Shown here in pieces: positions 23,509 to 23,936 of a stretch of DNA of 23,936 bases. This stretch comes from a virus: UHGV virus genome UHGV-0360783, one strand, 5' to 3'. Numbering within the stretch: the first letter of the stretch is position 1; every line of letters begins with the position of its first letter. The translations under genes were made by a program, and so were the position numbers. The notes under the pieces were generated by a model. It ran no database searches. It saw only the letters and a program-made list of their open reading frames with translations, and was not told the DNA's origin.

Positions 23509-23797
23509 TTACTCTCTGGAAGCTTTTCTTATCTCTCTTGGTGTTATATTAAAACGATTATGAAATCTTTCAGTAAAACGAGAAGGACACTTATAACCAT
23601 TTTCTCTGGCAATCTCGCTTATAGGTTTTACCGTCGTTTGTATAGCAGACAACGCATTATTTAACCTCACATCGTCCAGTATACTTTGGAAACTTACCCC
23701 CTCGCTTGCTAGACGGCGATGTAATGTAGAAACAGAAATGTAGAGATATCGAGCAACCTTGTTTGCTGTCCATTTTGTGCCGGGTTCGGATAGCAGC
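23509..23797 (-). pseudogene. 3' fragment of an AraC/XylS-family regulator gene (ybcM-like) truncated by the IS2 insertion
   Basis: My translation gives ...[95 protein letters not shown], an AraC-type HTH domain. There is no in-frame Met; the frame runs directly into the IS2 terminus at 23798. Confidence 0.7.
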
Positions 23798-23936
23798 TAG
23801 ACTGGCCCCCTGAATCTCCAGACAACCAATATCACTTAAATAAGTGATAGTCTTAATACTAGTTTTTAGACTAGTCATTGGAGAGCAGATGATTGATGTC
23901 TTAGGACCGGAGAAACGCAGACGGCGTACTACACAG
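23798..23936 (+). mobile_element. IS2 (IS3 family) terminal region: left inverted repeat and start of orfA; the element continues beyond the window end
   Basis: Sequence TAGACTGGCCCCCTGAATCTCCAGACAACCAATATCACTTAAATAAGTGATAGTCTTAATACTAGTTTTTAGACTAGTCATTGGAG... matches the IS2 end as I remember it, followed by the OrfA start. Confidence 0.88.
23888..23936 (+). CDS. insC: IS2 transposase OrfA (InsC), first 16 codons only
   Basis: ATG at 23888 translating MIDVLGPEKRRRRTTQ, the IS2 InsC N-terminus. Confidence 0.85.

What the first reader, a model, noticed from the sequence alone, without database searches (positions are those of the whole stretch)
23509..23936. IS2 insertion truncating a ybcM-like AraC-family gene
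The AraC-type HTH reading frame runs without a start codon directly into the IS2 terminus at 23798, which is followed by the IS2 OrfA start at 23888. The IS element continues beyond the window, so the rest of the disrupted gene and any target-site duplication cannot be seen here.
Basis: partly seen in the sequence, partly recalled or inferred. Interest (0 to 1): 0.5.

Follow-up and report, generated by a model that had tools for sequence, protein, structure and literature searches.

The report
IS2 insertion splitting prophage gene ybcM
A common E. coli jumping gene (IS2) has landed in the prophage-borne regulator gene ybcM and cut it in two; this is an ordinary, well-understood gene knock-out, and the other half of the gene and the 5-bp insertion footprint were found on a second contig of the same sample.

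Summary
Window 23509-23797 (- strand) is the last 289 nt of ybcM (codons 171-265 plus stop, the whole AraC-type HTH_18 domain). It is 100% identical to ybcM of E. coli K-12 and GF131. At 23798 the sequence switches exactly to the left inverted repeat of IS2. That stretch matches K-12 IS2A at 136/139 nt and more than 2000 E. coli records at 139/139. The orfA ATG is at 23889, not 23888.

The window cannot be extended. It is the reverse complement of nt 1-23936 of ENA metagenome contig ERZ27316940:k141_49202, which stops 139 nt (k-2) into the repeat.

From the window I predicted the far-side product: YbcM 1-172 plus 12 residues read from the IS2 right end, assuming a 5-bp duplication GCAGC. That exact protein exists, and seven alternative variants do not. 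It is encoded in the same sample and in a second, independently assembled one. Removing IS2 and one GCAGC copy restores an intact 798-nt ybcM.

One point is open. The MEGAHIT contig links this IS2 to a second IS2 insertion in the F9 fimbrial usher gene. This is either a repeat-collapse mis-join (more likely) or an IS2-IS2 inversion. Interest is low.

The parts
23509..23797 (-). 3' fragment of ybcM: gene nt 510-798, that is the last base of codon 170, codons 171-265 and the stop. It encodes the complete AraC-type DNA-binding domain but has no start codon of its own.
   Evidence: The fragment is 289/289 identical to ybcM of GF131 and K-12. Pfam HTH_18 matches residues 15-91 of the 95-aa fragment, E = 1.7e-17. 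The frame is open up to the junction, and the only internal start is a GTG at 23670, giving 53 aa.
23793..23797 (.). GCAGC, the left copy of the 5-bp target-site duplication (ybcM nt 510-514, GCTGC in gene orientation).
   Evidence: The same 5 bp follow the IS2 right end on companion contigs L018 and L019, which read IRR|GCAGC|AGGTTATAAC. Deleting IS2 and one copy rebuilds the exact 798-nt ybcM.
23798..23936 (+). Left end of IS2, nt 1-139 of a 1331-nt element. It is cut off by the end of the source contig.
   Evidence: It matches K-12 IS2A at 136/139 and is 139/139 identical to E. coli copies annotated as IS2-family or IS3-family transposase, 2199 records having a best match of at least 99%. 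It is also identical to the left 139 nt of the complete 1331-nt IS2 on L018.
23798..23839 (+). IS2 left terminal inverted repeat (IRL), TAGACTGGCCCCCTGAATCTCCAGACAACCAATATCACTTAA.
   Evidence: It is identical to the first 42 nt of the annotated mobile element IS2A of K-12.
23889..23936 (+). First 16 codons of IS2 orfA (insC), MIDVLGPEKRRRRTTQ.
   Evidence: The translation is. It is identical to the N-terminus of K-12 InsC, and the start sits at the same offset (nt 92 of the element) as insC1 in IS2A.
23291..23392 (-). ylcH (33 aa), the gene immediately downstream of ybcM. Listed as synteny context.
   Evidence: The ORF is. The same position and size are annotated in GF131 and K-12.
22839..23294 (-). 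ybcN (151 aa, DNA base-flipping protein). Listed as synteny context for the DLP12-type nin region.
   Evidence: The ORF is and the annotation. In 6 of the 7 places shown, the exact protein lies with ylcH next to an intact 265-aa ybcM.

Best explanation
An IS2 element, an isoform 95.7% identical to the K-12 copy, transposed into codon 170/171 of ybcM. ybcM is the AraC-family regulator gene of a DLP12-type lambdoid prophage. The insertion duplicated the 5-bp target GCAGC, and the transposase genes point opposite to ybcM.

Shown:
- both IS-gene junctions;
- the 5-bp duplication;
- the exact restoration of ybcM when the IS is removed in silico;
- the full 1331-nt element with intact orfA and orfB on a companion contig.

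The insertion separates the N-terminal regulatory domain, which stays behind the ybcL-ybcM promoter, from the C-terminal double helix-turn-helix DNA-binding domain (the fragment in the window).

Inferred:
- The upstream piece can be translated only as YbcM 1-172 plus 12 IS-encoded residues (184 aa), with no DNA-binding domain.
- The downstream piece has no start codon, an in-frame TAG made by the IS2 tip, and no outward promoter-like site, so it is silent.
- The net result is a ybcM null allele. Because a K-12 ybcM deletion survives H2O2 eight-fold less well (PMC8464067), the strain has probably lost that regulator's contribution.

The mechanism of insertion is taken from established knowledge of IS2 and the IS3 family: copy-out/paste-in through a figure-of-eight and minicircle intermediate, with a 5-bp staggered target cut. 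It was not tested here.

The window stops inside the IS because the short-read metagenome assembly broke at the repeat.
For: Left junction. Identity to ybcM is 100% up to 23797, and the IS2 left repeat starts at 23798.

Source. rc(window) equals ERZ27316940:k141_49202 from nt 1 on, with 0 mismatches over 20,222 nt, so 23936 is a contig end lying 139 nt into IS2 with k = 141.

Right junction, predicted before it was looked for. Of 8 predicted chimeric products, only the one with a 5-bp duplication and the isoform right end is on record (P0001). It is encoded on k141_33081 of the same sample and on a SPAdes contig of sample ERZ28528011. The sequence there reads ...GGGGCAAATCCA|GCAGC|AGGTTATAAC.

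Reconstruction. The 5' 514 nt plus the 3' 289 nt, minus one GCAGC, equals the intact ybcM.

Element. It is 1331 nt. OrfA is identical and OrfB 290/301 identical to K-12. Five other IS2 copies examined all carry 5-bp duplications.

Domains. HTH_18 lies wholly in the retained fragment, and the weak ExsA_N-like N-terminal match lies in the missing part.

Expression. There is no promoter-like site on the - strand inside 23798-23936, and the frame shows TAG at the junction.

Function of YbcM. ChIP-exo found 12 binding sites, autoregulation of ybcLM, and H2O2 sensitivity of the deletion strain (PMC8464067).
Against: Physical continuity across the 1.3-kb IS was not observed. The one contig that runs through this IS2 (k141_33081) exits into the F9 fimbrial usher gene, not into the ybcM 3' part.

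The exact junction is absent from 5426 complete E. coli genomes and from the three scanned contig collections. Support therefore comes from only two or three metagenome assemblies.

Silence of the 3' fragment and loss of function are inferred, not measured. The promoter scan is a crude consensus search.
Confidence: 0.9

Rival explanations
1. The insertion happened as described, but the IS2 in ybcM later recombined with a second, inverted IS2 copy in the F9 (yde) fimbrial usher gene. In the present chromosome the window's ybcM 3' part would then be joined through IS2 to the usher 5' part. The prophage would be split into two halves by an inversion of about 1 Mb in K-12 coordinates (0.57 versus 1.58 Mb).
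For: MEGAHIT contig k141_33081 reads ybcL - ybcM 5' - IS2 - usher 3' part - ydeS - ydeR - ydeQ - ydeP. The two complementary junctions, the window and k141_137786 (usher 5' part|IS2), are both left dangling in the same sample. ybcM is annotated on the + strand in K-12. The yde genes lie on the opposite strand there according to recalled knowledge, which was not checked here. If so, recombination would produce exactly this inverted join.
Against: The IS2 sequence that the contigs share is identical: the left 139 nt between the window and k141_33081, and the right 140 nt between k141_137786 and k141_33081. A de Bruijn graph with k = 141 therefore holds no information about which flank goes with which, and the through-path is arbitrary. 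The dangling contigs stop at k-2 and k-1 nt into the IS, as expected for missing k-mers at a repeat. The SPAdes assembly of the second sample does not cross the IS. Large inversions that do not span the replication axis are uncommon (general knowledge). Each insertion has its own perfect duplication (GCAGC, ACCAT), so both started as simple insertions.
Confidence: 0.1
2. The junction at 23797|23798 is an assembly chimera: a metagenome assembler glued an intact prophage to an IS2 copy from elsewhere, and ybcM is really intact.
For: The source is a short-read metagenome assembly, and the contig ends in the repeat. The same assembly probably contains one mis-join across IS2.
Against: The break falls exactly at the first base of the IS2 terminal repeat. 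The reciprocal junction, with the matching 5-bp duplication, is present on a different contig of the same sample. It is also present in a second sample assembled with different software. A random mis-join would not create a precise target duplication.
Confidence: 0.02
3. The element is not IS2 but a different IS3-family element that shares only its end with IS2.
For: The copy differs from K-12 IS2A at 57 of 1331 positions. NCBI labels some identical copies only 'IS3 family transposase'. ISfinder could not be queried.
Against: The full copy is the same length (1331 nt) and has 95.7% nucleotide identity. Its OrfA is identical and its OrfB 96% identical to K-12. Its termini are IS2-type, and it makes 5-bp duplications. 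Other 100%-matching copies are annotated 'IS3-like element IS2 family transposase'.
Confidence: 0.03

Closest known systems
IS2 (IS3 family, IS2 group) of Escherichia coli, e.g. IS2A in K-12 yaiX
   Same: The 42-nt left terminal repeat is identical. orfA starts at nt 92. On the companion contig the element is 1331 nt long and has an orfA/orfB arrangement of 121 and 301 codons. It makes a 5-bp target duplication and disrupts a gene by insertion, just as IS2A splits yaiX with the duplication ATTAC.
   Different: There are 57 substitutions relative to the K-12 copy (95.7% identity) and 11 amino-acid changes in OrfB. It is therefore an isoform, the same one found in strain 1517k (2 differences). 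The insertion site in ybcM was not found in any of 5426 complete E. coli genomes.
ybcM (b0546) of cryptic prophage DLP12, AraC-family regulator
   Same: The retained 289 nt are identical to K-12 ybcM. The neighbours ylcH, ybcN, ninE, ybcO and rusA are the same. The 5' part on the companion contig is preceded by ybcL, ybcK and emrE, as in K-12.
   Different: Here the gene is interrupted. The surrounding prophage still carries full head, tail and lysis modules, unlike the decayed DLP12 of K-12. A lipocalin/YbgA-like block replaces nmpC.
IS-disrupted prophage genes in K-12 DLP12 (IS3C in renD; IS5 in nmpC, the latter recalled from knowledge and not checked here)
   Same: In both cases an insertion sequence splits a non-essential gene of the same prophage family, leaving two annotated gene fragments (for renD::IS3C).
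   Different: The element and the target gene are different. This event is specific to one strain seen in two or three metagenome assemblies.

Membership tests
IS2 (IS3 family) | IS2-type terminal inverted repeats (IRL TAGACTGG..., IRR ...CAAATCCA) | tested here: met
   The IRL in the window is 42/42 identical to K-12 IS2A. The IRR on companion contig L018 differs by 1 nt in its last 30 nt.
IS2 (IS3 family) | Element of about 1.33 kb with overlapping orfA (HTH) and orfB (DDE/rve) that are fused by a programmed -1 frameshift | tested here: met
   Only 16 codons of orfA lie in the window. The full copy on L018 is 1331 nt, with called genes of 121 aa (HTH_Tnp_1) and 301 aa (rve) that overlap. The frameshift itself was not tested; it is annotated as 'programmed frameshift' on near-identical copies.
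IS2 (IS3 family) | 5-bp target-site duplication | tested here: met
   GCAGC lies at both junctions (window and L018/L019). Five other copies also carry 5-bp duplications.
IS2 (IS3 family) | Sequence identity to the reference IS2 high enough to count as the same element or an isoform (ISfinder convention, recalled from memory: about 95% nt or more) | tested here: met
   Nucleotide identity is 1274/1331 = 95.7% to K-12 IS2A. OrfA is 100% and OrfB 96% identical. This is close to the threshold, and ISfinder itself could not be queried.
IS2 (IS3 family) | Transposition through a figure-of-eight and minicircle intermediate with the IRR as donor end | not testable with these tools
   This needs experiments. 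It is taken from published work on IS2, recalled from memory and not read here.
ybcM / AraC-XylS family regulator | C-terminal domain of about 100 aa with two helix-turn-helix motifs | tested here: met
   Pfam HTH_18 matches with E = 1.7e-17 and HTH_AraC with E = 6e-8, both above the gathering scores, within the 95-aa fragment.
ybcM / AraC-XylS family regulator | Orthology to b0546: same sequence and same locus | tested here: met
   The fragment is 289/289 nt identical to K-12 ybcM. The gene order ylcH-ybcN-ninE-ybcO-rusA is conserved.
ybcM / AraC-XylS family regulator | Intact coding sequence that can give a functional regulator | tested here: not met
   The gene is split at nt 509/510 by IS2. 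The window fragment lacks a start codon and the N-terminal 170 codons.

The most novel reading that the evidence does not exclude
The contig that joins ybcM-5'/IS2 to the F9 usher 3' part is real. Two IS2 copies would then have recombined and inverted roughly 1 Mb of the chromosome. This would cut an otherwise complete DLP12-type prophage into an early half and a late half, immobilising it, and would at the same time inactivate the F9 fimbrial operon.
Probability: 0.1. Interest if true: 0.25.

Novelty: already known. Interest (0 to 1): 0.1.

Why it matters
It matters little beyond correct annotation. The window carries a pseudogene fragment (ybcM') and a partial IS2, not a novel short HTH gene.

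For this strain it predicts two things. The first is loss of the YbcM regulator, which has been linked to survival of H2O2 stress in K-12. The second is a 1.3-kb insertion in the stretch between the replication genes and the Q antiterminator gene of a prophage that otherwise looks complete. That insertion might reduce late-gene expression, but this is an inference.

The exercise also shows that a contig ending in an IS can still be checked. One predicts the chimeric product of the far junction and looks it up exactly.

Tried and rejected
Searches for the exact junctions:
- The exact left junction (35-mer) was scanned in genome contigs, viral contigs and metagenome contigs, with no matches.
- The predicted right junction, allowing a 0-12 nt duplication, was scanned in the same three collections, with no matches.
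- A synthetic right-junction query against 5426 complete E. coli genomes gave no single-piece match. The two-piece hits proved to be IS2 copies beside a second ybcL-ybcM-emrE remnant near fliE/yedEF, at other positions.

Look-ups of window ORFs:
- The 53-aa internal ORF of the fragment found only a frameshifted ybcM on a Logan contig.
- The 73-aa ORF that spans the junction is not on record.
- YbcN returned no IS2-interrupted ybcM among the 24 longest contigs read.

Ideas rejected:
- The HTH fragment might be expressed as a free DNA-binding domain from an outward IS2 promoter. Rejected as unlikely, because there is no start codon before the GTG at 23670 (which would keep only the second helix-turn-helix), there is a TAG at the junction, and there is no promoter-like site facing out of the left end.
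- The MEGAHIT through-contig might be evidence of rearrangement. Not accepted, because the IS2 sequence shared by the contigs is identical, so the graph cannot phase the flanks.

Full report
**What is in the window.** The right end of the window belongs to a lambdoid prophage of the DLP12 type. Reading leftwards on the - strand are ylcH (23291-23392), ybcN (22839-23294), ninE, ybcO, rusA and a Q antiterminator gene, followed by the lysis, terminase, head and tail genes. The - strand frame that ends at the stop codon 23509-23511 stays open up to 23797 and has no start codon except a GTG at 23670.

Window 23300-23797 is 498/498 identical to the ybcM region of E. coli GF131 and 99.8% identical to BL21, REL606 and many other strains. 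The 289 nt from 23509 to 23797 are identical to the 3' end of ybcM in both GF131 and K-12. They correspond to gene nt 510-798, that is the last base of codon 170, codons 171-265 and the stop. Pfam places the whole HTH_18 domain (E = 1.7e-17) inside these 95 residues. The only N-terminal signal of full-length YbcM, a weak ExsA_N-like match at residues 32-129, lies in the missing part.

**The junction and the element.** A pairwise alignment with an intact ybcM shows identity ending exactly at 23797|23798. From 23798 on, the window aligns with the annotated left end of IS2A of K-12 (NC_000913.3 381260). The match is 136/139, and all 42 nt of the terminal inverted repeat are identical. The same 139 nt are 100% identical to many E. 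coli chromosomal and plasmid copies annotated as IS2-family or IS3-family transposase genes (E = 8e-66); 2199 records have a best match of at least 99%.

The orfA (insC) start is at 23889-23891, and the 16 codons present read MIDVLGPEKRRRRTTQ. On the ybcM strand, the IS2 tip plus one ybcM base make an in-frame TAG immediately upstream of codon 171.

**Why the window stops there.** A look-up of the window's terminase protein found only four contigs, all 20-50 kb. The contig shown is ENA ERZ27316940:k141_49202 (29,784 nt). From its first base it equals the reverse complement of the window, with 0 mismatches over the 20,222 nt retrieved. Position 23936 is therefore the physical end of a MEGAHIT (k = 141) metagenome contig that stops 139 nt into the repeat. 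The sequence cannot be extended from this contig.

**Finding the far side.** The exact left junction is absent from the following:
- 5426 complete E. coli genomes;
- the GTDB-representative, IMG/VR and JGI metagenome collections.

A pattern for the right junction was also absent from those three collections, and a synthetic right-junction query found no single-piece match in the complete E. coli genomes.

I then predicted the protein that a gene caller would produce at the far junction. It consists of the ybcM 5' part, a duplicated target of n bases, and read-through into the IS2 right end. I varied the duplication length and used either the K-12-type or the isoform right end, giving 8 variants. 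Only one exists among about 15 billion sequences. It has a 5-bp duplication and the isoform right end: YbcM 1-172 followed by DLPLYFQTPVIT, 184 aa (P0001).

This protein is encoded on three ENA contigs:
- One is k141_33081, from the same sample as the window.
- Another is a SPAdes contig of a different sample (ERZ28528011, NODE_15, 177,602 nt), which ends 54 nt into IS2.

The DNA there reads ...GGGGCAAATCCA|GCAGC|AGGTTATAAC..., whereas the window reads ...GGATAGCAGC|TAGACTGG.... GCAGC is therefore duplicated. Joining the 514-nt 5' part to the 289-nt 3' part and removing one GCAGC gives the exact 798-nt ybcM. Upstream of the 5' part lie ybcL, ybcK, emrE, P, O and ydaT/ydaS, which are the missing early half of the same prophage.

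**The complete element.** On k141_33081 the IS is 1331 nt long. Its left 139 nt are identical to the window. It differs from K-12 IS2A at 57 positions (95.7% identity) and from the copy in strain 1517k at 2 positions. OrfA is identical to K-12 InsC, and OrfB is 290/301 identical to InsD. Every other IS2 copy I examined is flanked by a 5-bp duplication:
- K-12 IS2A: ATTAC
- strain 1517k: TCGCT
- RM10410: GTTAG
- CUVET19-1426: CTTCA
- KKo009: GGTAT

It is an IS2 isoform. I could not query ISfinder.

**An unresolved point.** Contig k141_33081 does not leave the IS2 into the ybcM 3' part. It continues into the 3' two-thirds of the F9 (yde) fimbrial usher gene, from gene nt 920, followed by ydeS, ydeR, ydeQ and ydeP. 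I predicted the complementary chimeric product: usher 1-308, using the allele of strain GMF054 (100% identical over the neighbouring 3.9 kb), plus read-through into the IS2 right end. It exists (P0016). It lies on a third contig of the same sample, k141_137786, which ends 140 nt into IS2.

The sample therefore holds four junctions:

| Junction | Contig |
|---|---|
| ybcM-3' GCAGC\|IRL | the window (k141_49202) |
| IRR\|GCAGC ybcM-5' | k141_33081 |
| usher-3' ACCAT\|IRL | k141_33081 |
| IRR\|ACCAT usher-5' | k141_137786 |

These amount to two independent IS2 insertions, each with its own perfect 5-bp duplication. The IS2 sequence that the contigs share is identical, so a k = 141 graph cannot tell which flanks belong together. 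The two dangling contigs stop at k-2 and k-1 nt into the IS, as expected where k-mers run out at a repeat. I therefore regard the through-join as most likely arbitrary, meaning a collapsed-repeat mis-join. A real IS2-IS2 inversion of about 1 Mb would give the same set of junctions and cannot be excluded. I give it about 0.1.

**How it works.** Shown: a precise insertion of IS2 with a 5-bp duplication, oriented with its transposase genes opposite to ybcM. It separates the N-terminal domain from the DNA-binding domain.

From established knowledge of IS2 and the IS3 family, recalled and not tested here:
- Transposition is copy-out/paste-in through a figure-of-eight and a minicircle.
- The right end acts as the donor.
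- Integration at a staggered 5-bp cut makes the duplication.

Inferred consequences:
- The upstream piece can yield only a 184-aa protein with no DNA-binding domain.
- The downstream piece is not translated as a domain. It has no start codon before the GTG at 23670, and starting there would leave only the second helix-turn-helix. There is a TAG at the junction, and no promoter-like site faces out of the IS2 left end.
- The allele is therefore a null.

In K-12, YbcM binds 12 sites, including the ybcLM promoter, and a ybcM deletion survives 60 mM H2O2 eight-fold less well (PMC8464067). The strain has probably lost this function. The IS also sits between the replication genes and the Q gene of an otherwise complete-looking prophage, so it may be polar on late-gene expression. 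That is speculation.

**Comparison and verdict.** Both components are well known (IS2; ybcM of DLP12), and the type of event is routine. K-12's own DLP12 carries IS3C in renD. This particular site was not found in any complete E. coli genome, so it is a strain-specific allele seen in two or three metagenome assemblies. Novelty: already known. Interest: low.

Noticed in passing
window 18513-19100 (- strand); L002 26513-28580: The same prophage carries a second AraC-family ORF (195 aa; HTH_18 hit on the identical-length product in L007 and L017), between the lysis genes and a YbgA-like gene. In strain 1517k its counterpart is split by the same IS2 isoform, with the 5-bp duplication TCGCT. In L007 and L017 the gene is called as 44 aa + 195 aa, so it may already be degraded.
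   Followed up: partly
window 23936 (the window end); L017: The window is the reverse complement of nt 1-23936 of ENA metagenome contig ERZ27316940:k141_49202 (29,784 nt). The window end is a true contig end, 139 nt (k-2) into IS2.
   Followed up: yes
L018 6515-9578; L023 10001-11064; L020 3866-5196: The same sample has a second IS2 insertion, in the F9 (yde) fimbrial usher gene at gene nt 920 (duplication ACCAT). Eight complete E. coli genomes carry an IS2-type element in this usher near that point. In the one examined (JNEC-KY204) it sits only 1 bp away, and the other matches are split, so they lie at other positions. This may be a local IS2 hot region.
   Followed up: partly
L018 6001-12555: MEGAHIT contig k141_33081 joins ybcM-5'/IS2 to the usher 3' part. 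This is either a mis-join across identical IS2 copies or an inversion of about 1 Mb. The data in hand cannot decide.
   Followed up: partly
window 19595-21271: Between the Q antiterminator gene and the lysis genes, where K-12 DLP12 has nmpC, this prophage carries a YbgA-like DUF523/DUF1722 gene (19595-20554, - strand) and a lipocalin gene (20747-21271, + strand) as cargo.
   Followed up: no
window 16781-17122 (+ strand): A Bor/Iss-type lipoprotein gene (annotated 'increased serum survival lipoprotein Iss' in strain 1517k) lies between the lysis module and nohD/terminase.
   Followed up: no
L013, L014, L015: Some E. coli strains (RM10410, CUVET19-1426, KKo009) have a second emrE-ybcL-ybcM remnant next to fliE/yedEF. 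It is about 89% identical to the window's ybcM region. A K-12-type IS2 is inserted beside it at three different positions, upstream or downstream of ybcM.
   Followed up: partly
L003 1831-2627: A Logan contig (SRR6334890) carries a frameshifted ybcM that yields the same 53-aa C-terminal ORF as the window fragment. This is an independent way of inactivating the gene.
   Followed up: no
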